Source of the DNA: Somniosus microcephalus
Lineage: Eukaryota
Reading direction: 5' to 3'
Assembly: GCA_052327205.1 (NCBI GenBank)
Contig: CM126209.1
Span: 258,292,001-258,356,000 of the forward strand
DNA: 64,000 nt
The notes beneath the pieces were generated by a model. The model was not told the origin of the DNA, did no database searches, and saw only the letters and a program-made list of their open reading frames with translations. The number at the start of each line of letters is the position of its first letter. Positions within the stretch are counted from its first letter, which is position 1. The translations under genes were made by a program, and so were the position numbers. This document shows, piece by piece, positions 1,378 to 56,834 of this stretch.

Positions 1378-3955
1378 AAAGAATCTGCTTAGAAGAAATA
1401 AAGACACAAGAACTTAAGGAGCCAACATAAATCGTTGGGCACATCAGTTCAATTCCATTTATACTCCAGCTATGATCATTCCATCATCGCTTTCCAAATC
1501 ATCACCACCTGCTGATTACTACTTAAGGAAGATTAAATTATTTCCCCATCTTGCCATAAAACAATCAATTGGTACTATTAAGATTTCTATAATTCTCCGC
1601 CTCTATTCAGAGGTCCGTTCAGTCGCCTTATAAAATTGTTCTTTGACCTCGATTCAACTCCTGTCTCTGTGCCGCGCATCCAGTAACCTGTGAAATAGCT
1701 TTTTTAAATCTGTAATCTTGCCCAATTATTGAGAACTTTATACTTACCTCACCTAATCTTACAATCAGTGTCCAAGTTAATGAGGTTGTTATATTTAATT
1801 TTATCTCGAGCTTTCAATATTTTAAAGACGTACATGCATGTATAAAAAATTATTCTGGTGTCTTTAATCAAAAACGTACTCCAGAAGGCCTGAAATCATG
1901 TTCAGTCTTCAAACTCTTTCTAATGCAAGTATAGCTTTTGATGAAATCTGCAGGCCGTTCTCCAGAGCTGGCCATAGGATTAATTTGTACAATGTCAGTA
2001 CAACTTGTCATGACTTAAAAAAGTACCTTCCAAGTACTTCTGCATTCCCAATTTACCTTACTACTAACGCTTTCGTAATGACTAGGTGCTTTCAGGGTAT
2101 AATATATGATCACTTCTATGACTATTGTTGTTTGCTTTTTCAGCCTAGGCCATTGGAGAACTTTATCTTTTGTTGTATACTGGCTTACTGATACCTGTTA
2201 ATACATGTATTATCTTACTTTTAATCCACATTAACATGCATATTTCATACCTCATCACAACTTCTGTAATTGGTACATGTCACTCTGAAAATAATCACGT
2301 TACTTCCACTTCACCATCTGCCCACATACCTTTGTGTCACTAGAAAAAGTAATAACACTACTACACCGTGTCAATATGATTTAAAAACTTTGGGAACGGT
2401 AAGGATCCAAAAAAGATCCTTGAAAAATACGCCTGGAAATAGTAACCAACTTCCTCTGTCTTCTGGCACCAAGTCAATTATGATTCCATCTAGATAAAGT
2501 GGCATCTATTCCATGAGCCTTAAACTTCCAAACCCGTCTCACTTGTGGACTGTTGTCAAAAGTCCATTAAAGATCTAAGTACACTACATCTATTGATTTA
2601 CCCCAGCTTAGTTACCTCTCACAGAATAACATTATATTGGTAAGGCTTAGCCTTTAATTTCTAAAACAATCTTAGGATACCTGTGCTCCCTGGCTGTCCT
2701 TTGGAGCATCCTGCAAATGGTTCTCAAGTGTATTCTCACTTAGGGCTTTAGGTGAACTGTTGTTTTACCAGTATGATGCTTTAGCTCTTTTTTGAATATT
2801 GAAACTGAATTAATTGCCTTTAGGTCCCTAGATGCTATATTTATAGAACTCGGAAAGGTGTTAACAGGTCAGATTTTATATTTCATTACGACATTTTGTG
2901 GTGACTCAGCCAAACCTACAATCTCCTGTTCTAATTGCCAATTTGATTTTAGTTGTGCCATCGTTCATTCGGAGATTCAAGATGTGCTGATTAAATTCAA
3001 ATCCAGGAGAGAAGGTTGACACATTGCATTTGCACACTGCCCTTTTTGCCCGTGTGTATGGGCTTCAGTTCCGACCAGACTTGTTAGTAGACATTATTGT
3101 TTCTCTTTTTGCTGTCAATGGTCAGATAGTACAGGTACCAGGCTCCTACCGTATCTATAGAGCGTGCTGGCTTGTGCGGGAGTGACTGGAGTTGGACGGT
3201 GCAGTCTCTCCAGAAAGATGGAGATTTTTTGCACACTTTTACGCACATGCACAGAAGCCCATTGACGGGTATCTAAATATCAGTCAAAAGAGATCCGATG
3301 TAGGTACGGATTCTCTGTTGTCACTAAAATGATTCAAAACGAATAGTTTTAAATATTGAACTGACCTGAAGTAAGTAATTCTGCAACTTGTGTGATGCCC
3401 AAAGATACAAGACGACCTGCTGAATTTAGTTTGATCTGGAGCTCATTAATAAATTAATTGCAGCGAACGGGCTGATATCGGAATAACTGAGAAGCAACCA
3501 ACCTGTTTACAGCAACCAGGCGGAAGTCCTATTTTGCTACCAAGGAAAGTGCTATATAATTCCACGGATATACATGTTTGCTCAGAGTTCCTCTCCAGAT
3601 TGTTAAAATGTAAACGTTTAGGGAGAGTGGGGGACAATGTCAACACTTGCTATTTATTTAACTAAACTCCAGTGAGTTTAAAAAGTGTCCACAGAATTCT
3701 CTGGGCCTCCAGGACACTTGTTAACCTCAATTGAACAATGCATCGCAAAGGAACGTAAACACAGCCGGGGACTACACTAGATAGCAATGACGCAGGGATG
3801 TTGGCTGGAAATAGAAATATGGCAGAAATCGGCCAATTATGTGTTTAAGATATCAGTCACTTTCCCTCATTTCACTCTGCTGGATTTCCCCAAAGATAAC
3901 TGTACATCCGAATCAAACCTGTGAGGATTACCCCCTCTTTTTAGAAGCGCCTCAC

Positions 3956-6415
3956 CTCATTGTTTGCAGTGTTGTTGTAATTTACAGATCTCATCATTCC
4001 TGGATTTTCTTTCCCGTTAGATTCATTCTGGACATAACGCATGTCTGTAGATGACCTGCGGGTGTTGGGGTTGATGATGTCTCTCTTCGTCGACTGCAAT
4101 GTTGAACATGACTCGTAGCGGAAACTCTGAGAGAGTGGATCACCCCCGAATACCTCAACATAGTTCGGTGGTATCTGAAGGTTTCTACTGGCCTTTTGAA
4201 TTCCATGCAGAGAATTTCTTGTTTCAAAGCAGCAACAAACACCCAGGGAACAGTGATGTCCATTTCTGCTTTTATGAACTTTAACAGCCAGGATAATCAA
4301 AATCACCAGAAAAATGATAGAAATTATCCCTAAGGCGATGACCAAGTAAAGGCTCATATCAGGATTGAATCCAGGGTCTTCAGGAAAATCACTCACATTA
4401 GAAAACATTTCAGTAGCGCTTCCCACCACAGATAGGATGATAGTCACAGTGGCCGAAAGGGATGGTGTTCCATTGTCTCTTACCACAATCACCAATCTTT
4501 GCTTAGAGGCATCTTTATTCGCAATACGACGGATAGTCCAAATTTCTCCAGTATCTGGTGAAATAGTAAAAAGGTTATGATGGGTGGCCTGAAAAATCTG
4601 ATAAGAGAGACGAGCATTCTGACCGGCGTCAGCATCAGTGGCCGATACCTTGGCAACCAAGTAGCCTGGTTCTGCAAGCCTGGATATTGTCTCTGTTGCT
4701 GTCGACCCATACTCGGGTAATGGGTGCACGATCACTGGAACATTGTCATTCTGATCAAGGATAATAACATCGACTGAAACGTTACTTGCGAGTGGTGGGA
4801 CTCCGGAATCATGGACCTGAACTTGGATCTGAAAGTTTTTCAATTGCTCGTAGTCAAAAGATCTCTGAGCAAATATGACGCCACTCTCTGAGTTTATGGC
4901 GACATAACTGGCTGCTGAGGCGCCCTGAACTTCAGTCTCCAGGATAGAGTAGTTCAGTCGAGCGTTGTGTCCTACATCTGGATCGACGGCTGTCACTGAG
5001 AATATGGAAGTCCCAATGACGTTGTTCTCCATCACGTTTGCCGTGTATAAATGCTGCGTAAACCTTGGTGCGTTGTCATTTATATCCGAAACCTCAACCC
5101 GAATGGTTTTCTTGGAAATGAGAGGAGGGTTTCCTGCATCCCGGCATGTTATAATAACGTCATACCTGGAGGTTTGTTCGCGGTCCAGTAGATGATGAAT
5201 CAGCAGTCTATAATAGTTCTTCAAAGATGAATCTAATTTAAAGGGCAGTTTATCTGAAATTTGACATTGTACCTGCCCGTTTTGTCCCGAATCTTTGTCT
5301 GCTGCACTGAACAGAGCCACTACAGTCCCAAGCGGAGCATCTTCGGAAACTGTACTTGACAAAGACCTCAACATGATCTCAGGTGCGTTATCATTCACAT
5401 CAATAATGTCCACCAAAACATCACAGTGCTCCGGTATTGCGCCAGTACCCTTGTCAATTGCTTGTATGTTAATCTCAAAGGCACTGTTTTCCTCATAGTC
5501 CAAATTCCCTTTCACTCTGATTTCACCAGTTTTAGAATCCACGTCAAATAGTTCACGGACTTTAGCGCCAGTATGTCTACTGAGCGAGTACATTATCTCC
5601 CCATTGGGACCATCGTCCAAGTCAGTGGCGTTTAATGTGATTATCAGGGTTCCTGTGGGTGCAGTTTCCAACAGGCTGACCCTATAAACCGACTGGGAGA
5701 AAACAGGCGCGTTGTCGTTAATATCCTTTACTATGATTGTAACCTGAACAGTGCCCGATCTTACAGGGACCCCACCGTCCTTGGCTATTAGCGTTAACCT
5801 GTGGGTTGATTGTGTTTCTCTGTCCAAGGATCCCTGCAACAGCAATACTGGCAGCTTTCTTTCCCCTCTGCCCATCTGTACATCGAGAATAAAATAATCG
5901 TTCGGGAGGAGCTGGTAGGTTTGTACTGAGTTGGTTCCAATGTCCGGATCGTGCGCGGACTCGAGGGGGAAGCGCGCTCCCGGCGCAGCAAGCTCGGGGA
6001 TTTCAAGGCGGAGCTCGTCCTTTGGAAAACTGGGAGCATTGTCATTTACATCGAGAATCTCCACTTCAACCTGATACAGATTGAGGGGATTTTCAAGCAC
6101 AACATCCAAGGTTAACACACAAGTGAGGCTCGGCCCGCATAGATTTTCTCTGTCAATCTTTCCCTTAAGAAATAAAATTCCATTATCTAAATTTACGTCC
6201 ACATACTGTTTCTTGGAGCCGGTCACAATCCGCAAACTGCGAGCCGAGAGCTGCTTTACATCTAAACTTAAATCGGCTGCGATATTCCCAACAAAGGCGC
6301 CCAGTTGCAGCTCTTCAGGAATCGAATAACGAATCTGTCCAGAAACTAGATTCCACGAGGAGAACACACAGAACAATAGTTGGCAGTTCAGCAAAAAATA
6401 TATCTTAAATCTCAT
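3956..6415 (-). CDS. Clustered protocadherin variable exon V1
   Basis: ATG at 6415 (MRFKIYF). Signal peptide, QIRYSIPEE EC1 start, six cadherin repeats (DRE, DxNDNxPxF, AxDxG), TM YLVIALGIISIIFLVILIILAV, and phase-0 donor GAG|GTGAGG at 3956/3955. Confidence 0.95.
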
Positions 6416-6619
6416 TTCCAGCGTAAAACATCCCAAATTTTTCAGTACGAGACCGCACCATTCATTCTCCTTGAGCAGTTATTTGGATATATATTTCAAA
6501 AACTCGAAGAACTTCGATGTACAAAATACCTGCACGTTTTGTGAATCGCTCGGCTTATTTCATTTAAATCTTCTCATTTTGTCGAAAATTGCCATTGGAT
6601 TCTTGCACAAATCGTTCGG

Positions 6620-8027: not shown

Positions 8028-10545
8028 CTCCATCTATGATCATTCCATCATGGCTTTCCAAACATCCACCAGCTGATGATTATTACTTAATGAACACTAA
8101 ATTATTACCCTGTCTTGCCATAAAACAAACAATCGGTGCCATTAAGATTTCTCTAATTCTCCGCCTCTCTTTCAAACAGCGATCCATTCAGCCCCCTTAT
8201 AAAATTGTTCTTTGATCTCGAATCAACTCATGTCCCTGTGCCACGCATCCACTAACCTGTGAAATAATTTTTTTTATAATCTGTAATCTTGCTCGATTGT
8301 TGAGAACTTTTTGCTTACTTCGCCTAGTCTTACAGTTAGTGTTCAAGTTAAGTCACTTGTTATATTCAATTTTAGCAGTATCTTTTGATATTTTAAAGAC
8401 TTGTATACATATATTCCTCGATTTTCCTTTCTAAAGTGAAAATTAATGCAGGTCCCTTTAATGAAAACATACTCGATGGCCTAAAATCATCCTGTTCACC
8501 CTTCAAACTCTTTCTAATTCAGGTATAACCCTATTGGCCATACTCCAGAACTGACCATAGGATTAATTTGTATAATGTCAGTATAACCTGTCATGACTTG
8601 AAAAGCAGTACTTCTGGGCTCTTCTCCATTCTCAATTTGCCTTATTTCTAACACGTTTACATTCACTAGATGCTTTCAGAATATAATATATGATCACTCC
8701 CATAACTTTTTTTAGTTACATTTTCAGCATAGGCCAGTGGAAAAGTTTATTTGTTTATTTTATACAGGCGTACTGATACCTGTTAATATGTCTATTATCT
8801 TATTTTTTAATCCACATTAACATACATATTTCATATCTCAATGCTACTTTTGTAATTGGGACATGTCACACTGAGAATAATCATATTTCTTCCACCTCAC
8901 GCCCTGTCCAGATACCTCTGTGTCACTAGAAAAAGTAATGACAGTATTACACCGTGTCCATGTGATATATAAAATTTTTGAACGGTGGGAATAGGAAAGG
9001 ATCCTTGAAAAAAGAACAGCTGGAAATAGTAACCAATGCTTCTTGCACTGAGCCAATTCTCATTCCACTTAGACCATGTACCATCTATTCCATGAGTCTT
9101 AAACCCCAGAGCAAGTTCACTTGTGGACTGTTGTCAAATGTCCATTGAAAATCTAAGTAAACTATATCTAATGATTTACCTTAACGTAGTTACCTCTCAA
9201 AAAATTCCAATATATTGGTAAGGTGCAGCCTTTCATTACTAAAACCTTTTTAGGATACCTGTGCTCCCCAGCAATCATTTGTAGCATCCTACAAATGGTT
9301 AGCAAATGCTTTCTCTCTTTGGATGTTGGGTGAACTGTTGTGTTATTACCAGTACCCTTTTTTTGAATGTTGAAACTGCACGTTGTCCTTAGGTCCCTAG
9401 GTACTGGATTTATAGACTCGGAAAATATTAACAGGTCTCAATTAATGTTTCATTACGACATGTTGTGGCGATTCAGCCAAACCTACAATCTCCTGTTGTA
9501 ATTCTCCACCTTGATTTTAGTTGTGCCAACGTTCATCCATAGATTCAGGATGTGCTGATTAAAATTCAAATCCAGGAGAGAAGGTTGGCACATTGCATTA
9601 GCACACTGCTCTTTTTGTTCTCGTGCATGAGCTTCAATTCCGACCAGACCAAATGGCTGAAATTATCATCGGTCCTTTTGCTGTCAAGGGCCAGATGTTA
9701 CTGGTCCCAGTCACCTACCATATCTTTAGAGTGTAATGGGGTGTGAGGGAGTGGCTGGAGTTGAAATGTGCAGTCTCTCCAGAAAGGGCGAGATTGTTTG
9801 CAAATTTTTAGGCATATGCACAGAAGTCCATTCATTGGTATCTACATATCAGTTAAAGGTCATTCGGTGTAGGTACCGATTCTCTGTTGCCACTAATATG
9901 ATTCAAAGTGAATAGTTTCAAATAATGAACTGATATGATCTTAGTAATTCTGTAAATTCTCTGAAAGCCACCGATACAAGACAACCTGATCAGTTAGATT
10001 ATTCTAACCTCCTCAGAAACCTCCTGATATTAAATAATTACATCGTTCTATCTGAGACCACAACGACTTAGAAGTAAGCAACCTGTTTGCAGTACCTGGC
10101 TGTAGCAATATTCTGCTGCCAAAGAATGTGTCCTGTACTGGCATGGATATACCTGTGTGTTCAGTTCCTCTCCAGATAGTTAAAATATAACCGTTTAGAG
10201 AGTGCGGGACAATGTCAACACTTGCCATAAATCTATATAAACTCCATTGGGTTTAAAAGTGTCCACAGAATCCAGTGGGCTTCCAGGACAATTGTTAAGC
10301 CCAATTGAACAATGCATTGGAGTTACCTATATTCGCAAATGAACGTAAACACATGCTGGGAGATACCACTAAATCGCAATTATGCTGGCATGTTGACAGG
10401 AAGTGAAATAGTGCAGAAAACCGCGAATGATGCATTTAAGACATCAGTCCATTCCCCTCATTTCGATGTGCTGGGTTTCCCCCAAAAATCTGTACGTCCG
10501 AATAAAACCTTTGAGGATTTTCACCTCTTTTTAGAAGCGCCTCAC

Positions 10546-13014
10546 CTCATTGTTTCCAGTGTTGCTGTGATTTATAGAATTAATCATTCCTGGATTTTCT
10601 TTCCCGAAAGATTCATTCTGGACATAAGGCGTGTCTGTAGAAGTCCTGCATGTGTTGGGGTTGATGATGTCCCTCTTCGTCGACTGCAATGTTGAACACG
10701 ACTCATAGCGGAAACTCTGAGAAAGTGGATCACCCCCGAATACCTCAACATAGTTCGGTGGTATCTGAAGGTTTCTACTGGCCTTTTGAATTCCATTCAG
10801 AGAATTTCTTGTTTCAAAGCAGCAACAAACACCCAGGGAACACTGCTGTCCTCCCAAACCATTTCTGCTTTTATGAACCTTAACAGCCAGGATAATCAAA
10901 ATCACTAGAAAAATGATAGAAATTATCCCTAAGGCGATGACCAAGGAAAAGCTCATATCAGGATTGAATCCAGGGTCTTCAGGTAAATCACTCACATTAG
11001 AAAACATTTCAGTAGCGCTTCCCACCACAGATAGGATGATAGTCACAGTGGCAGAAAGGGATGGTGTTCCATTGTCTCTTACCACAATCACCAATCTTTG
11101 CTTAGAGGCATCTTTATTCGCAATACGACGGATAGCCCAAATTTCTCCAGTGTCTGGTGAAATAGTATAAAGGTTATGATGGGTGGCCTGAAAAATCTGA
11201 TAAGAAAGACGAGCATTCTGACCGGCGTCAGCATCAGTGGCCGATACCTTGGCAACCAAGTAGCCTGGTTCTGCAAGCCTGGATATTGTCTCTGTTGCTG
11301 TCGACCCATACTCGGGTAATGGCTGCACGATCACTGGAACATTGTCATTCTGATCAAGGATAACAACATCGACTGAAACGTTACTGGCGAGTGTTGGGAC
11401 TCCAGAATCCTGGACCTGAACTTGGATCTGAAAGTTTTTCAATTGCTCGTAGTCAAAAGATCTCTGAGCAAATATGACGCCACTCTCTGAGTTTATGGCG
11501 ACATAACTGGCTGCAGAGGCGCCCTGAACTTGAGTCTCCAGGATAGAGTAGTTCAGTCGAGCGTTCTGTCCTACATCTGGATCGACGGCTGTCACTGAGA
11601 ATATGGAAGTCCCAATGACGTTGTTCTCCATCACGTTTGCCGTGTATAAATGCTGCGTAAACCTTGGTGCGTTGTCATTTATATCCGAAACCTCTACCCG
11701 AATGGTTTTCTTGGATGTGAGAGGAAGGTTTCCCGCATCCCGGCATGTTATAATAACGTCATACCTGGAGATTTGTTCGCGGTCCAGTAGATGCTGAGTC
11801 AGCAGTCTATAATAATTCTTCAAAGAGGAATCTAGTTTAAAGGGCAGTTTATCTGACACTTGACATTGTACCTGCCCGTTTTGTCCCGAATCTTTGTCTG
11901 CTGCACTGAACAGAGCCACTACAGTCTCAAGCGGAGCGTCCTCGGAAACGGTACTCGACAAAGACCTCAACATGACCTCAGGTGCGTTATCATTCACATC
12001 AATAATGTCCACCAACACATCACAGTGCACCGGTATTGCGCCAGTACCTTTGTCCATTGCTTGTATGTTAATCTCAAAGGCACTGTTTTCCTCATAGTCC
12101 AAATTCCCTTTCAATCTGATTTCACCAGTTTTAGAATCTACGTCAAATAGTTCACGGGCCTTAGCGGCAGTGTGGCTACTAAGAGAGTACATTATCTCCC
12201 CATTGGGACCATCGTCCAAGTCAGTGGCGTTTAATGTGATTATCAGGGTTCCCTTGGGTGCAGTTTCCAACAGGCTGACCCTATACACCGACTGGGGAAA
12301 AACCGGCGCGTTGTCGTTAGCATCCTTTACTATGATTGTAACCTGAACAGTGCCCGATCTTACAGGGACCCCGCCGTCCTTGGCTATTAGCGTTAACCTG
12401 TGGGTGGATTCCGTTTCTCTATCCAAGGACCTCTGCAACACCAACACTGGCAACTTTCTTTCCCCTCTGCCCATCTGTACATCGAGAATAAAATAATCGT
12501 TCGGGAGGAGCTGGTAGGTTTGTACTGAGTTGGTTCCAATGTCCGGATCGTGCGCGGACTCGAGGGGGAAGCGCGCTCCCGCCGCTGCAAGCTCTAAGAT
12601 TTCAAGGCGGAGCTCATCCTTTGGAAAACTGGGAGCATTGTCATTTACATCGAGAATCTCCACTTCAACCTGATACAGATTGAGGGGATTTTCAAGCACA
12701 ACATCCAAGGTTAACACACAAGTGAGGCTCGGCCCGCATAGGTTTTCTCGGTCAATCTTTTCCTTGACAAACAAAATTCCATTGTCTAAATTTACGTCCA
12801 CATACTGTTTGCTGGAGCCGGGCACAATCCGCAAACTGCGAGCCGAGAGCTGCTTTACTTCTAAACCCAAATCGGCGGCGATATTCCCAACAAAGGCGCC
12901 CAGTTGCAGTTCTTCAGGAGTCGAATAACGAATCTGTCCAGAAACGAGATTCCACGAGGAGAACACACAGAACAATAGTTGGCATTTCAGCAAGAAATAT
13001 ATTTTAAATCTCAT
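10546..13014 (-). CDS. Clustered protocadherin variable exon V2
   Basis: Same architecture as V1. ATG at 13014, donor GAG|GTGAGG at 10546. Confidence 0.95.
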
Positions 13015-13219
13015 TTCCAGCGTAAAACATCCCAATTTTTTCAGTACGAGACCGCACCATTCATTATCCTTGAGCAGTTCTTTGGATATATATTTTAAAA
13101 ACTCGAAGAACTACGATGCACCAAATACCTCCACGTTTTGTGAATCGCTCGGCTTTTTTCATTTAAATCTTCTCATTTTGTCGAAAATTGCCACTGGATT
13201 CTTGCACAACTCGTTCGGA

Positions 13220-13432
13220 GCTGCTCGCTATCCAATGTTACACTGCGTCTGATCTTACGTGATGGTGGCTGGGTAGTGAAGGGGGCAGGCCGGATCACCA
13301 ATCACATCTCAGCTTCTGATTGGTGAACATAGGCACATTGAAATTCAACCAATCAGAATACTATTCGTTTCTTAAAGCTGGAAGGTCATAAATCTCAGCA
13401 GAACACTTACATTTATCGTTGTACAATTGAAA
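13220..13432 (-). promoter_or_regulatory. Conserved Pcdh promoter module, V2
   Basis: CCAAT 13298, ATTGG 13319, CCAAT 13349, plus GC box, TTACGTGA and TTCTTAAAG. Confidence 0.75.
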
Positions 13433-20353: not shown

Positions 20354-20517
20354 TGCTGGCATGTTGACTGGAATTGAAATAGTGCAGAAAACTGTAAATT
20401 TTGCATTTAAGATATCAGTCCTTTGCCCTCCTTTCAATGTGCTGGATTTCCCCAAAGAAATCTGTACATCCGAATCAAACATGCGAGGATTTTCCCCTCT
20501 TTTTGAAAGCACCTCAC

Positions 20518-22986
20518 CTCATTGTTTATTGTGTTGCTGTAATTTATAGAATTCATCATTCCTGGATTTTCTTTCCCGGTAGATTCATTCTGGACATAAT
20601 GCTTGTCTGTAGAAGCCCTGCAGGTGTTGGGGTTGATGAAGTCTCTCTTCGTCGATTGCAGTGTTGAACATGATTCGTAGCGGAAACTCTGAGAAAGTGG
20701 ATCACCCCCAAATACCTCAACATAGTTCGGTGGTATCTGAAGGTTTCTACTGGCCTTTTGAATTCCATTCAGAGAATTTCTGGTTTCAAAGCAGCAACAA
20801 ACACCCAGGGAACACTGCTGTCCTCCCAAACCATTTCTGCTTTCATGAAGCTTAACAGCCAGGATAATCAAAATCACTAGAAAAATGATAGAAATGATCC
20901 CTAAGGCGATGACCAAGGAAAGACTCATATCAGGATTGAATCCAGGGTCTTCAGGTAAACCACTCACATTAGAAAACATTTCAATATCGCTTCCCACCAC
21001 AGATAGGATGATAGTCACAGTGGCAGAAAGGGATGGTGTTCCATTGTCTCTTACCACAATCACCAATCTTTGCTTAGAGGCATCTTTATTCGCAATACGA
21101 CGGATAGTCCAAATTTCTCCAGTGTCTGGTGAAATAGTAAAAAGGTTATGATGGGTGGCCTGAAAAATCTGATAAGAAAGACGAGCATTCTGACCGGCGT
21201 CAGCATCAGTGGCCGATACCTTGGCAACCAAGTAGCCTGGTTCTGCACGCCTGGATATTGTCTCTGTTGCTGTTGACCCATACTCGGGTAATGGGTGCAC
21301 GATCACTGGAACATTGTCATTCTGATCAAGGATAACAACATCCACTGAAACGTTGCTGGCAAGTGTTGGGACTCCAGAATCCTGGACCTGAACTCGAATG
21401 TGAAAGTTTTTCAATTGCTCGTAGTCAAAAGATCTCTGAGCAAATATGACGCCACTCTCTGAGTTTATGGCGACATAACTGGCTGCTGAGGCGCCCTGAA
21501 CTTGAGTCTCCAGGATAGAGTAGTTCAGTCGAGCGTTCTGTCCTACATCTGGATCGAAGGCTGTCACTGAGAATATGGAAGTCCCAATGACGTTGTTCTC
21601 CATCACGTTTGCCGTGTATAAATGCTGCGTAAACCTTGGTGCGTTGTCATTTATATCCGAAACCTCTACCCGAATGGTTTTCTTGGAAGTGAGAGGAGGG
21701 TTTCCTGCATCCCGGCATGTTATAATAACGTCATACCTGGAGGTATGTTCGCGGTCCAGTAGATGCTGAATCAGCAGTCTATAATAGTTCTTCATAGATG
21801 AATCTAGTTTAAAGGGCAGTTTATCTGAAATTTTACATTGTACCTGCCCGTTTAGACCCGAATCTTTGTCTGCTGCACTGAACAGAGCGACTACCGTCCC
21901 AAGCGGAGCGTCCTCGGAAACGGTACTTGACAAAGACGTTAATATGACCTCAGGTGCGTTATCATTCACATCAATAATGTCCACCAAAACATTACAGTGC
22001 TCCGGTATTGCACCAGTACCCTTGTCCATTGCTTGTATGTTAATCTCAAAGGCAATGCTTTCTTCATAGTCCAAATTCCCTTTCACTCTGACTTCACCAG
22101 TTTTAGAATCAACCTCAAAAAATTCATGGACTTTAGCGGAAGTATGGCTACTGAGCGAGTACATTATCTCCCCATTGGGACCATCGTCCAAGTCAGTGGC
22201 GTTTACTGTGATTACCAGGGTTCCTGTGGGCGCACTTTCCAACAGGCTGACCCTATAAACCGACTGGGGGAAAACAGGTACGTTGTCGTTAATATCCTTT
22301 ACTATGATTGTAACCTGAACAGTGCCCGATCTTACAGGCACCCCGCCGTCCTTGGCTATTAGCTTTAGCCTGTGGGTGGATTCCGCTTCTCTATCCAAGG
22401 ACCTCTGCAACACCAACACTGGCAACTTTCTTTGCCCTCTGCCCATCTGTACATCGAGAATAAAATAATCGTTCGGGAGGAGCTGGTAGGTTTGTACTGA
22501 GTTGTTTCCAATGTCCGGATCGTGCGCGGACACGAGAGGGAAGCGCGCTCCCGGCGCAGCAAGCTCTAAGATTTCAAGGCGCAGCTCGTCCTTTGGAAAA
22601 CTGGGAGCATTGTCATTTACATCCAGAATCTCCACTTCAACCTGATACAGATTGAGGGGATTTTCAAGCACAACATCCAAGGTTAACACACAAGTGAGGC
22701 TCGGCCCGCATAGATTTTCTCTATCAATCTTCTCCTTAACAAACAAAATTCCATTATCTAAATTTACGTCCAAATACTGTTTGCTGGAGCCGGGTACAAT
22801 CCGTAAACTGCGAGCCGAGAGCTGCTTCACATCTAAACCCAAATCGGCGGCGATATTCCCAACAAAGGCGCCCAGTTGCAGTTCTTCAGGAATCGAATAA
22901 TGAATCCTCCCAGAAACAAGATTCCACGAGGAGAATACACAGAACAATAGTTGGCATTTCAGCAAACAATATATTTTAAATCTCAT
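20518..22986 (-). CDS. Clustered protocadherin variable exon V3
   Basis: Same architecture as V1. ATG at 22986, donor GAG|GTGAGG at 20518. Confidence 0.95.
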
Positions 22987-23190
22987 TTCCAGCGTGAAAC
23001 ATCCCAAATTTTTCAGTACGAGACCGCACCATTCATTACCCTTGAGCAGTTATGTGGATATATATTTTTAAAACTCGAAGAACTACGATGTACCAAATAC
23101 CTGCACGTTTTGTGAATCGCTCGGCTTATTTCATTTAAATCTTCTCATTTTGTCGAAAATTGCCACTGGATTCTTGCACAACTCGTTCGG

Positions 23191-25550: not shown

Positions 25551-26823
25551 TATCAGATGGTTATCCAATGCTTTTTCTCATTGGATGTTGGGTGAACTGT
25601 TGTGTTATTACCAGTACAGTGCTTCACCCTTTTTTTGAATATTGAAACTGCACGTTGTCCTTAGGTCCTTAGGTCCTTAGGTGCTGTATTTATAGAACTC
25701 AGAAAGTATTAACAGGTCTCAATTAATATTTCATTACGACACGTTGTGGTGATTCGGCCAATCCTACAATTTCCTGTTATAATTCTTCACATTGATTTTA
25801 GTAGTGCCAACATTCATCCGTAGATTCAGGATGTGCTGATTAAAATTCAAATCCAGGAGAGAAGGATGGCGCATTTCATTCGCACACTGCCCTTTTTGCT
25901 CCCGTGCATGAGCTTCAATTCCGACCAGTCTAATTGGCTGAAATTATCATCTCTCCTTTTGCTGTCAAGGGCCAGATGTTACAGGTCCCAGTCACCTACC
26001 TTATCTTTAGAGTGTGATGGGGTGTGAGGGAATGGCTGGAGTTGGACGGTACAGTCTCTCCAGAAAGATCGAGATTTTTTGCACATTTTTACACATATGC
26101 ACAGAAGTCCATTCACTGGTATCTAAATATCAGTTAAAACTGATCTGGTGTAGGTGCTGATTCACTGTTGACACCAATTTGATTCAGAGCGAATAGTTTT
26201 AAATTTTGACTGACATGAACTCAGTGATTCTGCAAATTCTTTGAAGGCCACCGATACAAGTCAACCTGACCAGTTAGGTTATTCTGGAACGCAGAAACCT
26301 CCTGATATTAATTACTTACATCTATCTATCTGAGACCACAACAACTTAGAAGTAAGCAACTTGTTTGCAGTACGTGACTGCACTAATATTCTGCTGCCAA
26401 GGAAGGTGTCCTGTACTGGCATGAATATACATGTATGTTGAGGTCCTCTCCAGATAGTTAAAATTCAACCGCTTCGAGAGTGGGGGGCAATGTCAACACT
26501 TGCTATACATCTAAAGAAACTCCAGTGCGTTTAAAAGTGTCCACAGAATCTAATGGGCTTCCAGGACACTTGTTAAACCCAATTGAACAACGCATTTGAG
26601 TTACCTATATTCGCAAATGAACGGAAATACATCCTGGGAGATACGACTACATAGCAGTGATGCTGGCATGTTGACTGGAAGTGAAATAGTGCAGAAAACT
26701 GCGAATAATGCATTTAAGACATCAATCCCTTACCCTCGCTTCAATGTGCTGTATTTACCCCAAACACCTGTACATCTGAATCAAAATTTTGAGGATTTTC
26801 ACCTCTTTTTAGAAGCACCTCAC

Positions 26824-29292
26824 CTCATTGTTTACAATGTTGCTGTAATTTACAGAACTCATCATTCCTGGATTTTCATTCCCGATAGATTCATTCTGGA
26901 CATAACGAGTGTCTGTAGAAGTCCTGCATGTGTTGGGATTGATGATGTCTCTCTTCGTCGACTGCAATGTTGAACATGATTCGTAACGGAAACTCTGAGA
27001 AAGTGGATCACCCCCGAATACCTCAACGTAGTTCGGTGGTATCTGAAGGTTTCTACTGGCCTTCTGAATTCCATTCAGAGAATTTCTTGTTTCAAAGCAG
27101 CAACAAACACCCAGGGAACACTGCTGTCCTCCTAAACCATTTCTGCTTTTAAGAATCTTAACAGCCAAGATAATCAAAATCACTAGAAAAATGATAGAAA
27201 TTATCCCTAAGGCGATGACCAAGGAAAGGCTCATATCAGGATTGAATCCAGGGTCTTCAGGTAAACCACTCACATTAGAAAACATTTCAGTAGCGCTTCC
27301 CACCACAGATAGGATAATAGTCACAGTGGCAGAAAGGGATGGTGTTCCATTGTCTCTTACCACAATCACCAATCTTTGCTTAGAGGCATCTTTATTCGCA
27401 ATACGACGGATAGTCCAAATTTCTCCAGTGTCTGGTGAAATAGTAAAAAGGTTATGATGGGTAGCCTGAAAAATCTGATAAGAAAGACGAGCATTCTGAC
27501 CGGCGTCAGCATCAGTGCCCGATACCTTGGCAACCAAGTAGCCTGGTTCTGCAAGCCTGGATATTGTCTCTGTTGCTGACCACCCATATTCGGGTAATGG
27601 GTGCACGATCACTGGAACATTGTCATTCTGATCAAGGATAACAACATCCACTGAAACGTTGCTGGCGAGTGTTGGGACTCCAGAATCCTGGACCTGAACT
27701 TGGAACTGAAAGTTTTTCAATTGCTCGTAGTCAAAAGATCTCTGAGCAAATATGACGCCACTCTCTGAGTTTATAGCGACGTAACTGGCTGCCGAGGCGC
27801 CCTGAACTTGCGTCTCCAGGATAGAGTAGTTCAGTCGAGCGTTGTGTCCTACATCTGGATCGACGGCTGTCACTGAGAATATGGAAGTCCCAATGACGTT
27901 GTTCTCCATCACGTTTGCCGTGTATAAATGCTGCGTAAACCTTGGTGCGTTGTCATTTATATCCGAAACCTCTACCCGAATGGTTTTCTTAGATGTGAGA
28001 GGGGGGTTTCCTGCATCCCGGCATGTTATAATAACGTCATACCTGGAGATTTGTTCGCGGTCCAGTAGTTGCTGAATCAGCAGTCTATAATAGTTCTTCA
28101 GAGATGAATCTAACTTAAAGGGTAGTTTATTTGTTATCTGACATTGTACCTGCCCGTTTAGTCCCGAATCTTTGTCTGCTACGCTGAACAGAGCCACTAC
28201 AGTCTCAAGCGGAGCATCTTCTGAAACTGTACTTGACAAAGACGTCAAAGTCACCTCAGGTGCGTTATCATTCACATCAATGATGTCCACCAACACATCA
28301 CAGTGCTCCGGTACTGCGCCAGTACCCTTGTCCATTGCTTGTATACTAATCTCAAAGACACTGCTTTCTTCATAGTCTAAATTCCCTTTCACTCTGATTT
28401 CACCAGTTTTAGAATCCACGTCAAATAGTTCACGGACTTTAGCGGCCGTATGGCTACTGAGCGAGTACATTATCTCCCCATTGGGACCATCGTCCAAGTC
28501 AGTGGCATTTAATGTGATTATCAGGGTTCCTGTGGGTGCACTTTCCAATAGGCTGATCCTATAAACCGACTGGGAGAAAATAGGCGCGTTGTCGTTAATA
28601 TCCTTTACTATGATTGTAACCTGAACAGTACCCGATCTTACAGGGACCCCGCCGTCCTTGGCTATTAGCTTTAGCCTGTGGGTGGATTCTGTTTCTCTGT
28701 CCAAGGATCTCTGCAACACCAACACTGGCAACTTTCTTCCCCCTCTGCCCATCTGTACATCGAGAATAAAACAATCGTTCAGGGGGAGCTGGTAGGTTTG
28801 TACTGAGTTGTTTCCAATGTCCGGATCGTGCGCGGACTCGAAGGGGAAGCGCGTTCCCGGCGCAGCAAGCTCGGAGATTTCAAGGCGGAGCTCGTCCTTT
28901 GGAAAACTGGGAGCATTGTCATTTACATCCAGAATCTCCACTTCAACCTGATACAGATTGAGGGGATTTTCAAGCACAACATCCAAGGTTAACACACAAG
29001 TGAGGCTCGGCCCGCATACATTTTCTCGGTCAATCTTCTCCTTAACAAACAAAATTCCATTGTCTAAATTTACGTCCAAATTCTGTTTGCTGGAGCCGGG
29101 CACAATCCGTAAACTGCGAGCCGAGAGCTGCTTTACATCTAAACCCAAATCGGCGGCGATATTCCCAACAAAGGCGCCCAGTTGCAGTTCTTCAGGAATC
29201 GAATAATGAATCCTCCCAGAAACGAGATTCCACGAGGAGAACACACAGAACAATAGTTGGCATTTCAGCAAGAAATATATTTTAAATCTCAT
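26824..29292 (-). CDS. Clustered protocadherin variable exon V4
   Basis: Same architecture as V1. ATG at 29292, donor GAG|GTGAGG at 26824. Confidence 0.95.
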
Positions 29293-29496
29293 TTCCAACG
29301 TAAAACATCCCAAATTTTTCAGTACGAGATCGCACCGTTCATTATCCTTGAGCAGTTCTTTGGATATATATTTTAAAACTCGAAGAACTACGATGTACCA
29401 AATACCTGCACGTTTTGTGAATCGCTCGGCTTATTTCATTTAAATCTTCTCATTTTGTCGAAAATTGCCACTGGATTCTTGCACAAATCGTTCGGA

Positions 29497-31320: not shown

Positions 31321-32352
31321 TCACCACATTGATTTTAGTTGTGCCAACGTTCATCCGTAGATCCAGGATGTGCTGATTAAAATTCAAATCCAGGAGAGAA
31401 GGATGGCATATTACATTAGCACACTGCCCTTTTTGCTCTCGTGCATGAGCTTCAATTCCGACCAGACTAATTGGCTGAATTTATCATCTCTCCTTTTGCT
31501 GTCAAGCGCCAGATATTACTGGTCCCTGTCACCTACCATATCTTTAGAGTGTGATGGGGTGTGAGCGAGTGGCTGGAGTTGGAAGGTGCCGTCTCTCCAG
31601 AAAGGGCGAGATATTTTGCACATTTTTACACATATGTACAGAAGTCCATTCACTGGTATTTAAAGATCAGTTAAAAGTGATCCGATGTAGGTGCTAATTC
31701 TCTGTTGACACTAATATGATTCAAAGTGAATAGTTTTAAATAGTGAACTGACAAGAACTCAGTAATTCTGCAAATTCTCTGAAGGCTACCGATACAAAAC
31801 AACCTGATCAGTTAGGTTATTCTGGAACGCAGAAACCTCCTGATATTAATTAATTAAATCGATCTATCTGAGACCAAAACAACTTAGAAGTAAGCAACCT
31901 GTTTGCAGTACGTGGATGCACTTATATTCTGCTGCCAAGGAAAGTGTCCTGTACTGGCATGAATATACATGTATGTAGAGTTGCTCTCCAGATAGTTAAA
32001 ATTCAACCGTTTAGAGGCTGGGGGGCAATGTCAACACTTGCTATACATCTAAAGAAACTCCATTGGGTTTAAAAGTGTCCACAGAATCCTGTGGGCTTCC
32101 AGGACACTTGTTAAACCCAAATGAACAATGCATTGGAGTTACCTATATTCGCAAAGGAACGTAAACACATCCTGGGAGATACGACTAAAGAGCAGTGATG
32201 CTGGCATGCTGACTGGAAGTGAAATAATGCAGAAAACTGCGAATGGTGCATTTAAGACACCAGTCCCTTACCCTCGCTTCAATGTAACCCAAAAACCTGT
32301 ACAAGTGAATCAAACTTTTGAGGATTTTCACCTCTTTTTAGAAGCGCCTCAC

Positions 32353-34818
32353 CTCATTGTTTACAGTGTTGCTGTAATTTACAGAATTCATCATTCCTGG
32401 ATTTTCTTTCCCGATAGATTCATTCCGGACATAACGCATGTCTGTAGATAATCTGCAGGTGTTGGGGTTGATGATGTCTCTCTTCATCGAATGCAATGTT
32501 GAACATGATTCGTAGCGGAAACTCTGAGAAAGTGGATCACCCCCGAATACCTCAACGTAATTCGGTGGTATCTGAAGGTTTCTACTGGCCTTCTGAATTC
32601 CATTCAGAGAATTTCTTGTTTCAAAGCAGCAACAAACACCTAGGGAACACTGATGTCCTCCTAAACCATTTCTGCTTTTATGAATCTTAACAGCCAGGAT
32701 AATCAAAATCACTAGAAAAATGATAGAAATTATCCCTAAGGCGATGACCAAGTAAAGGCTCATATCAGGATTGAATCCAGGGTCTTCAGGTAAACCACTC
32801 ACATTAGAAAACATTTCAGTATTGCTTCCCACCACAGATAGGATGATAGTCACAGTGGCAGAAAGGGATGGTGTTCCATTGTCTCTTACCACAATCACCA
32901 ATCTTTGCTTAGAGGCATCTTTATTCGCAATACGACGGATAGTCCAAATTTCTCCAGTGTCTGGTGAAATAGTAAAAAGGTTATGATGGGTGGCCTGAAA
33001 AATCTGATAAGAAAGACGAGCATTCTGACCGGCGTCAGCATCAGTGGCTGATACCTTGGCAACCAAGTAGCCTGGTTCTGCAAGCCTGGATATTGTCTCT
33101 GTTGCTGTCCACCCATACTCGGGTAATGGGTGCACGATCACTGGAACATTGTCATTCTGATCAAGGATAACAACATCCACTGAAACGTTGCTGGCAAGTG
33201 GTGGGACTCCAGAATCCTGGACCTGAAGTTGGATCTGAAAGTTTTTCAATTGCTCGTAGTCAAAAGATCTCTGAGCAAATATGACGCCACTCTCTGAGTT
33301 TATGGCGACATAACCGTCTACTGAGGCGCCCTGAACTTGAGTCTCCAGGATAGAGTAGTTCAGTCGAGCGTTCTGTCCTACATCTGGATCGACGGCTGTC
33401 ACTGAGAATATGGAAGTCCCAATGACGTTGTTCTCCATCACGTTTGCCGTGTATAAATGCTGCGTAAACCTTGGTGCGTTGTCATTTATATCCGAAACCT
33501 CTACCCGAATGGTTTTCTTGGATGTGAGAGGAGGATTTCCCGCATCCCGGCATGTTATAGTAACGTCATACCTGGAGGTATGTTCGCGGTCCAGTAGATG
33601 CTGAATGAGCAGTCTATAATAGTTCTTCATAGATGAATCTAACTTAAAGGGTAGTTTATTTGTTATCTGACATTGTACCTGCCCGTTTAGTGTCGAATCT
33701 TTGTCTGCTGCGCTGAACAGAGCCACTACAGTCTCAAGCGGAGCATCTTCTGAAACTGTACTTGACAAAGACGTCAAAATCACCTCAGGTGCGTTGTCAT
33801 TCACATCAATAATGTCCACCAAAACATCACAGTGTTCAGCAACTGCGTCAGAGCCCTTGTCCGTTGCTTGTATGTTAATCTCAAAGGCACTGATTTCTTC
33901 ATAGTCCAAATTCCCTTTTACTCTGATTTCACCAGTTTTAGAATCCACGTTAAATAGTTCACGGACTTTAGCGGAATTATGGCTACTGAGCGAGTATATT
34001 ATCTCCCCATTTAGACCATCGTCTAAGTCAGTGGCGTTTAATGTGATTACAAGAGTTCCTGTGGGTGCAGTTTCCAACAGGCTGAGCCTATAAACCGACT
34101 GGGGGAAAACCGCAGCGTTGTCATTAGTATCCTTTACTATGATTGTAACCTGAACAGTGCCCGATCTTACAGGGATCCCGCCGTCCTTGGCTATTAGCGT
34201 TAACCTGTGGGTGGATTCCGTTTCTCTGTCCAAGGAACTCTGTAACACCAATACTGGATACTTTCCTTTCCCACTACGCATTTTTACATCGAGAATAAAA
34301 TAATCGTTCGGGAGGAGCTGGTAGGTTTGTACTGAGTTGTTTCCAATGTCCGGATCGTGCGCGGACTCGAGGGGGAAGCGCGCTCCCGGCGCAGCAAGCT
34401 CGGAGATTTCAAGGCGGTGCTCGTCCTTTGGAAAACTGGGAGCATTGTCATTTACATCGAGAATCTCCACTTCAACCTGATACAGATTGAGGGGATTTTC
34501 AAGCACAACATCCAAAGTTAACACACAAGTGAGGCTCGGCCCGCAAATCTGTTCTCTGTCAATTTTATCCTTGATAAACAAAATTCCATTGTCTAAATTT
34601 ACGTCCACATACTGTTCGCTGGGCCCGGCCACAATCCGCAAACTGCGAGCCGAGAGCTGCTTCACATCTAAACCCAAATCGGCGGCGATATTCCCAACAA
34701 AGGCGCCCAGTTGCAGCTCTTCAGGAATCGAATAGCGAATCTTCCCAGAAACTAGGTTCCACAAGAATACCCAGAGCAATATTTGGCATTTTAGCAACCA
34801 ATATATTTTAAATCTCAT
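32353..34818 (-). CDS. Clustered protocadherin variable exon V5
   Basis: Same architecture as V1. ATG at 34818, donor GAG|GTGAGG at 32353. Confidence 0.95.
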
Positions 34819-35017
34819 TTCCAGCGTAAAACATTCCAATTTTCTCAGTACGAGACCGCACCTTTCATTATTCTTGTAACAGTTACTTGGATTTATTTAT
34901 CTCGAATGACTACGATGCACCAAATACCTGCACATTTTGCGAATCGCTCGGCTTATTTCACTTAAATCTCCTCATTTTGACTAAAATTGTCACTGGATTC
35001 TTGCACAAATCCTTCGG

Positions 35018-39801: not shown

Positions 39802-40798
39802 TTGCTGAATAAGGAGTGATCTCACACCACTACGGCTTTAGAGGTGTGACATAGCAACTGCAATAGGTGCCCACCCAATTTCATTACACATCTTATTTTT
39901 TTTTACTGTTAGCCGGAGGGCAGGCTGTTCCTTATGCTCTCTGCTAACATTATTGAACCAAAATGTTAGCCACAAGTCATTGAGCAGCGTATATGGGTGT
40001 AAACCCCCACACTTTCCCTGAAAGGACAACAATATGGAACTGGCATTACATCAGCTGATTACTCATCACTATAAGTTGGCGACTGTTATAAATCAGTTCC
40101 TGCCGTCTAACTGCACCCTTGCGCTCCATTTCGCGGAGCTACACTTGAGCTGGCGATGCATAATTATGGTATTAGGTTCCTAAAATATAGGGCACCCATT
40201 CCTCGCCTTGATGACCACAAAAAGTGAACTAAAATAACTTAAAACAGCTGCAGTTTTTAATTTCCCTCCTATCACCCCCATCACTCATTACTGTTCATCG
40301 CGGTACTCTTAATCAAGCAGGCATTTGCGAATCCTCCCGCATTAATTTTGGACACTTCACCTTATCTTTAATCGAGTTCGACTTGAGCCCAGTTCGAGTA
40401 GGATCAAATAAGTAGGTGGCAGCTGGGAATCTATCCTGACTGCTACATTCTCTGAGATACGATTTATGGTTCGCTGTTACGCTTAACGACGTAATGATGT
40501 CATTGCACGTAACAGTAGCACGCACTGTGTGCATTCAAATGAGCTGGAGGAGGAAGGAGGGGGTTGTAGAGAGGGGCCGAATTACGAATCTAAAAAGCTG
40601 CAATTACTAGCTCTACAACACACTTAGCGCATTCTGAAACACTGCCTTGAGGCTGGATTGGGCATGTTAACTGTAAAAAATGAAAAATAAAATGTCTTAG
40701 AAATCCATAGGGAGCACCCAATCTTGTGCTGCTATGTTTGACTGGCTACCCGTGGACCCAAAGCCAAACCCGTGCGTTGTTCTTTGCCAATACCTCAC

Positions 40799-43270: not shown

Positions 43271-43467
43271 TTCCACACTGAATCATTCCAATGGTTTCAG
43301 CACCAGACGGCTCCGTACATAATTCCTGTAACAGTTATTTAACTATCGTTTCTTAACTCGAAAGACGTTTTGTGCAACAGTACCGGTGCTTGTTTTGAGA
43401 ATCGCCGAGATTATTTCATTTAAATCGTCTCATTTCGTCTAAAATTGCCGGGGATAGATTGCGCTGC

Positions 43468-46041: not shown

Positions 46042-47030
46042 CTAACTATATAGAATAATAAAGTGCGGTAGACCAGTGCTTTGTATAAGCTAATCAGCAC
46101 TTTCTCAGATGGTACGTCCTAAAATTCTGTTAATTTTTTTTCCATCACCCTGGATTTTGTTCGAGGAGATGGTCTCACAGTGCTTCGGTATCAGAAGCCA
46201 CTATATTAAACTGCGCCAAGGCAGCACAAAAGTCTTACCAGGCACCGTGGGAGATTTGTATGTATAATAGCAAACATGCACCGAGATTATTTTTTTCTGT
46301 GGACAGAACAACGCTGAGCTGGAAGAAAAGCTTACACCTGTTGGCTCTACCTCCCTAGAAGCAGGTAGCAGTCTCTAACCGGTGCCTATGATATACCTGC
46401 ATCTTTCTTTACTCTGCTGCTCTCTGTGCAGAGACTCGGTTGAGAATGCCTGATTATAACTGTTACCTCAAATGAATGAGTGAATAGAGCTAACATAAAT
46501 CGCCCTGAGGACCACAGACACGGATAAAAAATTAAAATAATTATTAGCTGGTAACTTCTAGAGAAATACAATATTATGAAACTGACATTTATGGATTATT
46601 GTAGGATAATTGTGAAGCTGGCGCTGCTCTGTGTATGACAGTTAATTCGAGCAGAATCAGCAATTAGTAGGTGCATGGAAATATATCCTGCCTTACTCTT
46701 CCTATACAGTTTAATCATAGTACTACTTCTAAGAATGAACGCTACATCAATCATCTTGTGCAACTTCTTATCACTGAGGATAAAACACTTGAAGAGTTGC
46801 AATAATTTGATAGCACGAGAATATCGAACACATTCTAAGAGACATTAATACTTTGTATAGAGACTGGTCTGGGCAAAATGATCAGTAACCAAAGTGGAAG
46901 GTAATTTGAGCTCAATTTGTGTTCAATTAACTCTTACAACTGCACATCGCCACAAAGAAACAAACAATCTCATTTGGAAAGTTTACCTGTTGATTCAAAT
47001 CACAAAGTAATTTTTTAAAAATCACCTCAC

Positions 47031-49505: not shown

Positions 49506-49694
49506 GACCAGCACAAAGCATTCCAATTGTTTCAGCGCGACGCGGTACTGTTCAACAATTCATTGGAATAAAGTTGTTTAGATATCATTTCTTAAGTAGT
49601 TGAGCTTAATTGCACAAAATACCTTTACTTACTAAAAATAAGAAAAATCTCCGTATATTTTAAAAACCACCAATGGATGCATGTACAAAACGCA

Positions 49695-56400: not shown

Positions 56401-56834
56401 TCATAAGCAACATCCCATTGATGAAATTTACATTCAAATTTTGTTTTCTCCAACCAGACACAATCCGAAACCGCGAGCTGTCTTACATCTAAACCCAAAT
56501 TGACCCCAGCATTCCTAACAAAGCCACCCAGTTGTTTTCAGTAATCTAGTAGCGAATGTGTCCACAAACTAGGTACCAGCAAAGGAGCATAAACCATAGC
56601 AGTTGCCTATTTAGCACTGCATTTATTTTAAAATATTTACACTTCCATCAATAACCTCGCAAATGATTCAGTGTGGGAAACACCGTTCAACATTTTCTTT
56701 GAATGTCATGTCAGAATTCTTTTCAGCAGAGTTACGTTGCTTAAAATACCTAAACCTTTTGAATGCCCAAACAATTTTCCGAGCATTTTCCGCAAAGCGA
56801 AATTCGATTCATGCACAAAACCTAATGTAACGTT

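What the first reader, a model, noticed from the sequence alone, without database searches (positions are those of the whole stretch)
6405..6431. Out-of-frame AUG at exactly -16 opens a uORF overlapping the start codon of all eight full-length Pcdh exons
Seen in sequence: minus-strand ATG at 6431, 13030, 23002, 29308, 34834, 43286, 49521 and 61193, always 16 nt before the Pcdh ATG and always closed by TAA just inside the CDS. Examples: V1 ATG TTT TAC GCT GGA AAT GAG ATT TAA; V6 ATG ATT CAG TGT GGA AAT GAG ATA TAA; V7 ATG CTT TGT GCT GGT CAT GAG ATA TAA; V9 is one codon longer. Internal codons vary while the start and stop persist. The uATG has G at -3, as good a context as the main ATG. V1-V5 are recent duplicates, so there are about four independent observations. 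V6 has TGA in the Pcdh frame here, so a conserved N-terminal extension does not explain the pattern. Established knowledge: overlapping uORFs block reinitiation and repress the main ORF. Inference: a cluster-wide translational dosage control on Pcdh isoforms; I know of no description of it.
Basis: partly seen in the sequence, partly recalled or inferred. Interest (0 to 1): 0.75.

Follow-up and report, generated by a model that had tools for sequence, protein, structure and literature searches.

The report
Conserved decoy start in shark protocadherins
In this shark protocadherin gene array, eight gene starts each carry an extra, out-of-frame start codon 16 bases before the real one; it has likely been kept across sharks, rays and chimaeras, and is predicted to turn down how much of each nerve-cell identity protein is made.

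Summary
All eight listed protocadherin variable exons have an out-of-frame ATG at -16 that closes at TAA 8-11 nt inside the CDS. One correction: V7 is a pseudogene, so only seven are intact. Within the window alone the pattern is no more than inheritance could give (about 0.13-0.19 by chance), and five other leader trinucleotides are equally invariant. Outside evidence helps. In 17 gene models from sharks, rays and elephant shark that read through the leader, none contradicts the ATG, while the other five trinucleotides break 2-9 times each (P about 0.02-0.08). Three more models fit only with the ATG shifted to -13 or -17, and one probably lost it (P then about 0.09-0.13). An A-to-G change at -16 cannot be seen in protein data. 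Contigs from a run guessed to be RNA carry the ATG in an unspliced leader of about 210-270 nt. Best reading: an ancient overlapping uORF that likely damps translation of the nu-type isoforms by leaky scanning (0.55). Translation and repression are untested, the leader holds 2-6 ATGs, and the stop is probably a by-product of signal-peptide codons. This is a known kind of element in a place where my searches found no description.

The parts
6405..6431 (-). V1 overlapping uORF, ATG at -16, 8 codons, TAA at +8..+10
13004..13030 (-). V2 overlapping uORF (the leader laid with reads)
22976..23002 (-). V3 overlapping uORF
29282..29308 (-). V4 overlapping uORF
34808..34834 (-). V5 overlapping uORF
43260..43286 (-). 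V6 overlapping uORF; the Pcdh frame has TGA at -15..-13 here
49495..49521 (-). V7 overlapping uORF, in front of a pseudogene with three in-frame stops
61164..61193 (-). V9 overlapping uORF, 9 codons
6416..6448 (-). Conserved leader block -33..-1 of V1 that holds the uATG (ungapped in all eight exons; 18 of 33 columns invariant)
3941..6415 (-). V1 protocadherin variable exon ORF (824 aa; six cadherin repeats and cytoplasmic domain)
10531..13014 (-). V2 variable exon ORF
20434..22986 (-). V3 variable exon ORF
26809..29292 (-). V4 variable exon ORF
32338..34818 (-). V5 variable exon ORF
40697..43270 (-). V6 variable exon ORF
47022..49505 (-). V7 variable exon, pseudogene (stops at codons 15, 208, 242; no frameshift)
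54960..57050 (-). V8 decayed variable exon and promoter; lacks both the uATG and the main ATG
58706..61177 (-). V9 variable exon ORF (67% identical to elephant shark protocadherin nu8)
13226..13288 (-). Zone upstream of V2 (-212 to -274) where summed contig depth of run X1 falls from about 460 to about 60: inferred main region of transcript 5' ends
   Evidence: RNA status of X1 is a guess and contig depth is a poor measure

Best explanation
The -16 ATG starts a short out-of-frame reading frame that overlaps the protocadherin start codon, and it is likely an ancient, selectively kept decoy start that would lower translation of each nu-type protocadherin isoform by capturing scanning ribosomes. 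Shown: position, frame, stop and context in eight exons. Inferred from protein data: retention across sharks, rays and a chimaera. Inferred from contigs: presence in the mRNA leader. Predicted from established rules: ribosomes that start there stop 8-11 nt past the real AUG and do not go back, so protein comes only from ribosomes that leak past; equal contexts (G at -3, no G at +4) and a spacing at the edge of the range where two AUGs compete would give partial, not total, repression. The peptide itself is unlikely to matter.
For: ATG at -16 in 8 of 8 listed exons. In 17 gene models from 8 elasmobranch species and Callorhinchus milii that translate the leader in the Pcdh frame, codon -5 is Cys (15) or Trp (2), and in window V6 a stop: all TGN. 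Codon -6 is Glu, Lys, Gly or Gln, never Asp, Asn or His, so it can end in A in 17 of 17. The base after the ATG takes all four letters. The five other window-invariant trinucleotides are contradicted in 3 of 14, 3 of 14, 4 of 17, 9 of 17 and 2 of 17 models; the ATG in 0 of 17. On the tree, -16..-14 has the fewest changes of 28 three-base windows in all three runs; external-only P = 0.018 (Poisson) or 10 of 153 position pairs. Three elephant shark models keep an ATG-compatible junction after a length change: -13 in nu3, -17 in nu16 and nu17 (read by eye). X1 contig record 3 spans 12996-13209 unspliced across the uATG, depth is level from CDS to about -212, and no difference at 13028-13030 appears among 40 rows shown for organisms A and B, though position -10 differs in 8 contigs of B. 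uAUGs near the CDS and overlapping uORFs are normally depleted (PMC4890304, PMC7889888, passages).
Against: The window alone is explained by inheritance (0.13-0.19). An A-to-G change at -16 is invisible in protein data, and in the 3 Gly cases any change is. P0128 (Mustelus) splices in a way that seems to need AG at -14/-13; counted as a loss, P rises to 0.09 or 20 of 153 pairs. Counted strictly at -16, 17 of 21 informative models fit; the three shifted ones were left out of the tree count. Other positions (-27, -21, -11, -3) are also unchanged, so the block has constraints I cannot explain. The uATG persists in the V7 pseudogene. The leaders show no ATG depletion (34 seen, 38.5 expected in 210 nt), which may mean lax selection. 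X1 and X2 are only guessed to be RNA, come from related organisms, and 80 difference rows were hidden. No translation data.
Confidence: 0.55

Rival explanations
1. Inheritance without a role: the ATG was present in the ancestral nu exon and persists because the last 33 nt of the leader evolve slowly for other reasons; any repression is tolerated, not selected.
For: Neutral retention across the four window lineages is 0.13-0.19; six trinucleotides are invariant in the window; leader ATGs are not depleted; retained in pseudogene V7; with P0128 as a loss the external test is not significant.
Against: Neighbouring first and second codon positions change on average twice on the external tree, the T and G of the ATG not at all. 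Elephant shark Pcdh genes are reported to show limited gene conversion (PMC2764143 passage), so homogenisation is a weak explanation.
Confidence: 0.25
2. The letters are part of a DNA element (a transcription-factor or downstream-promoter site) or an RNA protein-binding site, and the uORF is a side effect.
For: The block -33..-1 is ungapped and as invariant (19 of 33) as the promoter core (61 of 110); T at -11 is also unchanged.
Against: The two bases before the ATG and the two after it vary freely, which breaks the TEAD-like (GGAATG) and DPE-like readings (motifs recalled, not from a call). No Rfam match; only a weak, poorly kept hairpin upstream of the block.
Confidence: 0.1
3. The uORF is a coupling device: ribosomes end 8-11 nt past the real AUG, slide back and reinitiate there, as in viral stop-restart.
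For: [quoted passage not shown]
Against: The same review says short overlapping uORFs typically repress and are bypassed by leaky scanning; overlapping uORFs are depleted among DENR targets (PMC6547434 passage). No conserved structure like TURBS was found. 13 of 121 N-termini cannot stop early.
Confidence: 0.05
4. The block is a real N-terminal extension of the signal peptide, started at a near-cognate codon (CTG at -30 or TTG at -21), and the conserved Cys codon creates the ATG.
For: The Pcdh frame is open over -30..-1 in 7 of 8 exons and several changes are synonymous in that frame; some annotations start further upstream.
Against: V6 has a stop at the Cys codon; two models have Trp; CTG at -30 is contradicted in 3 of 14 and TTG at -21 in 4 of 17 models; nu16 and nu17 appear to have a 1-nt shift inside the block.
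Confidence: 0.05

Closest known systems
Out-of-frame overlapping uORFs (oORFs) of eukaryotic mRNAs (PMC7889888, PMC4890304, PMC10275272; passages read)
   Same: AUG upstream and out of frame, stop inside the CDS; expected to repress, with the main ORF reached by leaky scanning.
   Different: oORFs are common (about 14% of uAUGs per species, PMC7889888) but usually selected against near the CDS. Here one is repeated at a nearly fixed distance in front of many alternative first exons and appears to predate the shark-chimaera split.
Closely spaced AUG competition in yeast reporters (Li et al. 2022, PMC9743702; abstract and section 9 read)
   Same: An out-of-frame uAUG within 30 nt lowers output, less so as it nears the main AUG; competition between two AUGs fades beyond about 17 nt, the spacing seen here.
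   Different: Synthetic yeast libraries; no natural conserved case and no vertebrate leader of this kind.
ATF4-type leader (short uORF1 plus overlapping uORF2; architecture recalled)
   Same: Short upstream uORFs precede an overlapping uORF in every leader.
   Different: No upstream uORF is shared by all exons, and only 16 nt separate the two starts, leaving little room for delayed reinitiation (inference).
Chondrichthyan protocadherin nu subcluster (Yu et al. 2008, not held; seen through passages of PMC2764143, PMC7811963, PMC2926608)
   Same: Tandem single-exon variable regions with their own promoters; curated hits are Callorhinchus nu proteins.
   Different: The passages I read describe promoter choice, CTCF/CGCT sites and NRSEs; none mentions a leader uORF or translational control.

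Membership tests
Overlapping uORF (oORF) | AUG upstream of and out of frame with the main AUG | tested here: met
   8 of 8 listed exons
Overlapping uORF (oORF) | Its stop lies inside the CDS, none before the main AUG | tested here: met
   TAA at +8..+10 (V9 +11..+13)
Overlapping uORF (oORF) | The AUG is in the mature mRNA | tested here: inconclusive
   Contigs of X1 and X2 (RNA is a guess, related organisms) cross it unspliced; raw RNA runs gave no test (X8 0 reads, X9 18 reads, none over the site)
Overlapping uORF (oORF) | Ribosomes initiate at it | not testable with these tools
   No ribosome profiling available
Overlapping uORF (oORF) | It lowers main-ORF translation | not testable with these tools
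   Needs a reporter
Conserved regulatory oORF | Start codon more conserved than neighbouring trinucleotides | tested here: met
   0 of 17 models contradict it versus 2-9 for five others; lowest of 28 windows; P 0.02-0.08, or 0.09-0.13 with P0128 as a loss; protein-level proxy only
Conserved-peptide uORF | The uORF peptide is conserved | tested here: not met
   Residues 2-4 and 6 differ among V1, V6, V7, V9; the last three are fixed by the Pcdh start
ATF4-type reinitiation switch | A shared permissive uORF1 upstream | tested here: not met
   The -50 uORF is in 6 of 8 window exons and compatible in 3 of 10 outside models (read by eye)
TURBS stop-restart | [quoted passage not shown] | tested here: not met
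   Weak hairpin only (-5.69 kcal/mol, covariation term +0.36); no Rfam match
Protocadherin nu variable exons | Signal peptide, six cadherin repeats and cytoplasmic segment in one large exon, in tandem | tested here: met
Protocadherin nu variable exons | Groups with Callorhinchus nu rather than delta, epsilon or mu | tested here: inconclusive
   Curated hits are nu8, nu9, nu13; 67% to nu8; the tree had no non-nu outgroup
Protocadherin nu variable exons | Splicing to shared constant exons | not tested
   Constant exons are not in the window; no genome held

The most novel reading that the evidence does not exclude
Cartilaginous fishes have a translational layer in the protocadherin identity code: since before sharks and chimaeras split, every nu variable exon has carried a decoy AUG at a tuned distance (-13 to -17, never in frame) that sets all stochastically chosen isoforms to the same low output, which keeps the isoform ratios needed for self versus non-self recognition.
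Probability: 0.25. Interest if true: 0.72.

Novelty: new member of a known kind. Interest (0 to 1): 0.48.

Why it matters
Clustered protocadherin control is described at the level of promoter choice and splicing. In the chain-termination model, signalling depends on lattice size and on mismatched isoforms (PMC7811963 passages), so the amount of each isoform should matter. A repressive start codon kept in front of many alternative first exons would add a translational step, and a one-base reporter test can check it. Limits: the nu subcluster is reported to have no orthologues in bony vertebrates (PMC2764143 passage), so relevance to mammals is unknown, and the mechanism is a standard one.

Tried and rejected
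No whole genome is held for this window, so nu exons outside it were not read as DNA. A protein search on the leader-plus-signal region of V9 found nothing. The representative-protein search (115 hits) gave no new nu leader read-through. No RNA holder was listed; X8 laid 0 reads and X9 18, none over the uATG, which is no test. The one joint seen (12958-13343, ends GA..AA) is non-canonical and was set aside. The donor-like site at about -114 was considered as a way to splice out the uATG: contigs read through it and 7 of 8 exons have no AG between -13 and -1. The first tree count used three P0137 residues that are probably not genomic; it was redone with masks, which is the one I rely on. Rows dropped before the count of 17: 4 duplicates or near-identical orthologues (P0137, P0235 at 3167, P0233, P0234), 5 too short to reach -16 (P0003, P0005, P0052, P0054, P0219), 1 spliced next to the Met (P0124), 3 length-shifted (nu3, nu16, nu17), and P0128, handled as a sensitivity case. 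A relic-start origin (frameshifted ancestral Met) was considered: total signal length would match 31-residue signals of other Pcdhs, but not when anchored on the KW motif; unresolved. Literature: searches found 0 papers; two searches listed 9 and 7, of which the three opened mention protocadherins only in passing. Yu et al. 2008 is not held; its figures or supplements may show these leaders. Four look-ups of earlier findings gave nothing relevant.

Full report
Setting. The window holds a tandem array of protocadherin variable exons on the minus strand: seven intact ORFs of 823-857 aa, one pseudogene with three in-frame stops (V7) and one decayed copy (V8). The best homologues are shark and ray proteins, and the curated ones are elephant shark protocadherin nu. 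The species was not determined, and no genome is held.

The observation. Each of the eight listed exons has an ATG 16 nt before the Pcdh ATG, out of frame, that closes at TAA 8 nt (V9: 11 nt) into the CDS. Both ATGs have G at -3 and lack G at +4, so both are 'weak' by the CCDS rule (PMC3308164 passage). V8 has neither. The uATG sits in an ungapped block in which 18 of 33 columns and 6 trinucleotides are invariant in all eight. V1-V4 are 95-96% identical upstream, V5 about 91%, and V6, V7 and V9 70-76%, so there are about four lineages, one of them a pseudogene. Fourfold sites are invariant across those four in 16 of 32 cases, so an ancestral ATG would survive unselected with probability about 0.13 (0.19 at the block rate). 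The window alone therefore does not show selection. The stop is written by the T of a Tyr or Phe codon and the AA of the next Lys codon. It is possible within the first four junctions in 108 of 121 nu-like N-termini (not independent) and impossible in 13, so I read it as mainly a by-product.

An outside test. No eukaryotic DNA could be fetched, but some public gene models translate the leader in the Pcdh frame, because they start at an upstream Met or fuse neighbouring exons. In that frame the uATG is the last base of codon -6 plus the first two of codon -5. Searches gave 17 usable, non-redundant models: 11 from 8 elasmobranch species and 6 from Callorhinchus milii. Codon -5 is Cys in 15 and Trp in 2; window V6 has a stop there; all are TGN. 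Codon -6 is Glu 8, Lys 5, Gly 3, Gln 1, and never Asp, Asn or His, although His and Tyr are common at codon -8. The other five window-invariant trinucleotides are contradicted in 3 of 14, 3 of 14, 4 of 17, 9 of 17 and 2 of 17 models, the ATG in none. By parsimony, other first and second codon positions change twice on average on the external tree and -15 and -14 not at all (Poisson P 0.018; 10 of 153 pairs; squared zero-rate 0.077). Search bias is limited: the first five cases came from a query without the leader, the six elephant shark cases from cluster membership, and one search also listed many proteins with no extension.

Results against and grey cases. A-to-G at -16 cannot be seen in protein, and models with a stop in frame cannot appear. 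P0128 (Mustelus) joins the previous exon directly to codon -4, which seems to need AG at -14/-13; as a loss it raises P to 0.09 (20 of 153 pairs), though -16..-14 stays the least-changed of 28 windows. Three elephant shark models do not fit at -16. In nu17 and nu16 the residues before the start match the window's block read with one extra base, giving an ATG-compatible junction at -17; nu3 is one codon shorter, giving -13 (read by eye, after the fact). Strictly, 17 of 21 fit at -16, 3 fit after a shift that keeps the ATG out of frame, and 1 does not fit. By comparison, the -50 ATG of V1-V6 is compatible in only 3 of 10 outside models (by eye).

Is it in the mRNA? Four runs were laid on the V2 5' end at 85% likeness, which pools close paralogues. 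In X1 (contigs, organism A, RNA by guess) summed depth is 216-332 just inside the CDS, 209-464 from the start codon to -212, then 193, 137 and 48-63 up to -367, and 0-12 beyond. The fall happens inside the promoter core, the most conserved part among paralogues, so it is unlikely to be an alignment effect. One contig spans +19 to -195 without a splice. X2 (organism B) covers the uATG and fades out by -173. No difference at the three uATG bases is among the 40 rows shown; 80 are hidden. The raw RNA runs are no test: X8 had 0 reads, and X9 had 18 reads, none over the site, some upstream of the promoter and all of one orientation, which fits read-through from upstream exons (inference). The tool warns that contigs cannot show a start or a level, so this is moderate evidence for a leader of about 210-270 nt. 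Such a leader holds 2-6 ATGs, 34 in all against 38.5 expected, so the -16 AUG is the last of several, and in V1-V3 it is in frame with one at -46.

Mechanism. Short overlapping uORFs typically repress, and the main ORF is reached by leaky scanning (PMC10275272 passage); they behave as reinitiation-incompetent in DENR data (PMC6547434 passages). Vertebrate uORFs are on average modest repressors and are depleted within about 100 nt of the CDS (PMC4890304 passages), and oORFs are under stronger purifying selection than non-overlapping ones (PMC7889888 passages). Long retention at -16 therefore goes against the usual trend. In yeast reporters, repression by an out-of-frame uAUG weakens as it nears the main AUG, and competition fades beyond about 17 nt (PMC9743702 abstract and section 9). 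I infer a partial damper that also catches ribosomes reinitiating after the short upstream uORFs (0.55). Rivals are inheritance (0.25), a DNA or RNA motif (0.10), reach-back reinitiation (0.05) and an N-terminal extension (0.05). Nothing here shows translation or repression.

Known and new. Overlapping uORFs are a common class, so the kind is known. Searches combining protocadherin with uORF, upstream AUG or ribosome profiling found no description in the held library, which lacks most subscription papers and Yu et al. 2008. The nu subcluster is reported to be absent from bony vertebrates and to show limited gene conversion (PMC2764143 passages). Reading depth: passages only for PMC3308164, PMC7811963, PMC2926608, PMC2764143, PMC4890304, PMC7889888, PMC10275272, PMC6547434, PMC12458181 and PMC12430003; abstract and one section for PMC9743702. 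The ATF4 architecture and the TEAD and DPE motifs are recalled.

Verdict. The feature is real, probably ancient among nu-type exons, and more conserved than its neighbours by a modest margin. Its function is predicted, not shown. Interest 0.48; new member of a known kind.

Noticed in passing
window, minus strand, GT at 6529, 13128, 23100, 29405, 34927, 43383, 49622, 61288 (about -114), and in V8: A splice-donor-like G|GTA site is conserved in all nine leaders inside otherwise diverged sequence. Contigs of X1 and X2 read through it unspliced. It could be a minor donor to the constant exons or a promoter-proximal U1 site.
   Followed up: partly
window 6712-6780 and the matching places upstream of V2-V9: Shared promoter core: two opposed CCAAT boxes, a GCTTTAAGAAA box near -360, and an (A/G)GCGAG near -210 that reads CGCT on the other strand in several exons; not tested as the CTCF-bound CGCT element.
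   Followed up: no
window 6442-6465 (V1) and the matching places in V2-V6: A second, 7-codon uORF from -50 ends at the TGA of the conserved CTGA, 10 nt before the -16 ATG; V7 reaches the same stop from -83; absent in V9.
   Followed up: partly
window 47022-49505: V7 has three in-frame stops but an intact promoter and leader; a Heptranchias model (P0008) shows the orthologous N-terminus open.
   Followed up: partly
window 13999-16764 (+) and 35599-36902 (-): LINE-type reverse transcriptase ORFs between variable exons (RVT_1 and endonuclease domains in the 687-aa ORF).
   Followed up: partly
window 63531-63683: Isolated cadherin-repeat fragment beyond V9, perhaps a further decayed exon.
   Followed up: no
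proteins P0005, P0052, P0054, P0219, P0235: Some paralogues in rays and elephant shark have gained an in-frame ATG at -9 inside the same block, still downstream of the -16 position.
   Followed up: no
window 13247-13536: Reads of RNA run X9, all of one orientation, lie upstream of the V2-type promoter, consistent with read-through from upstream variable exons.
   Followed up: no
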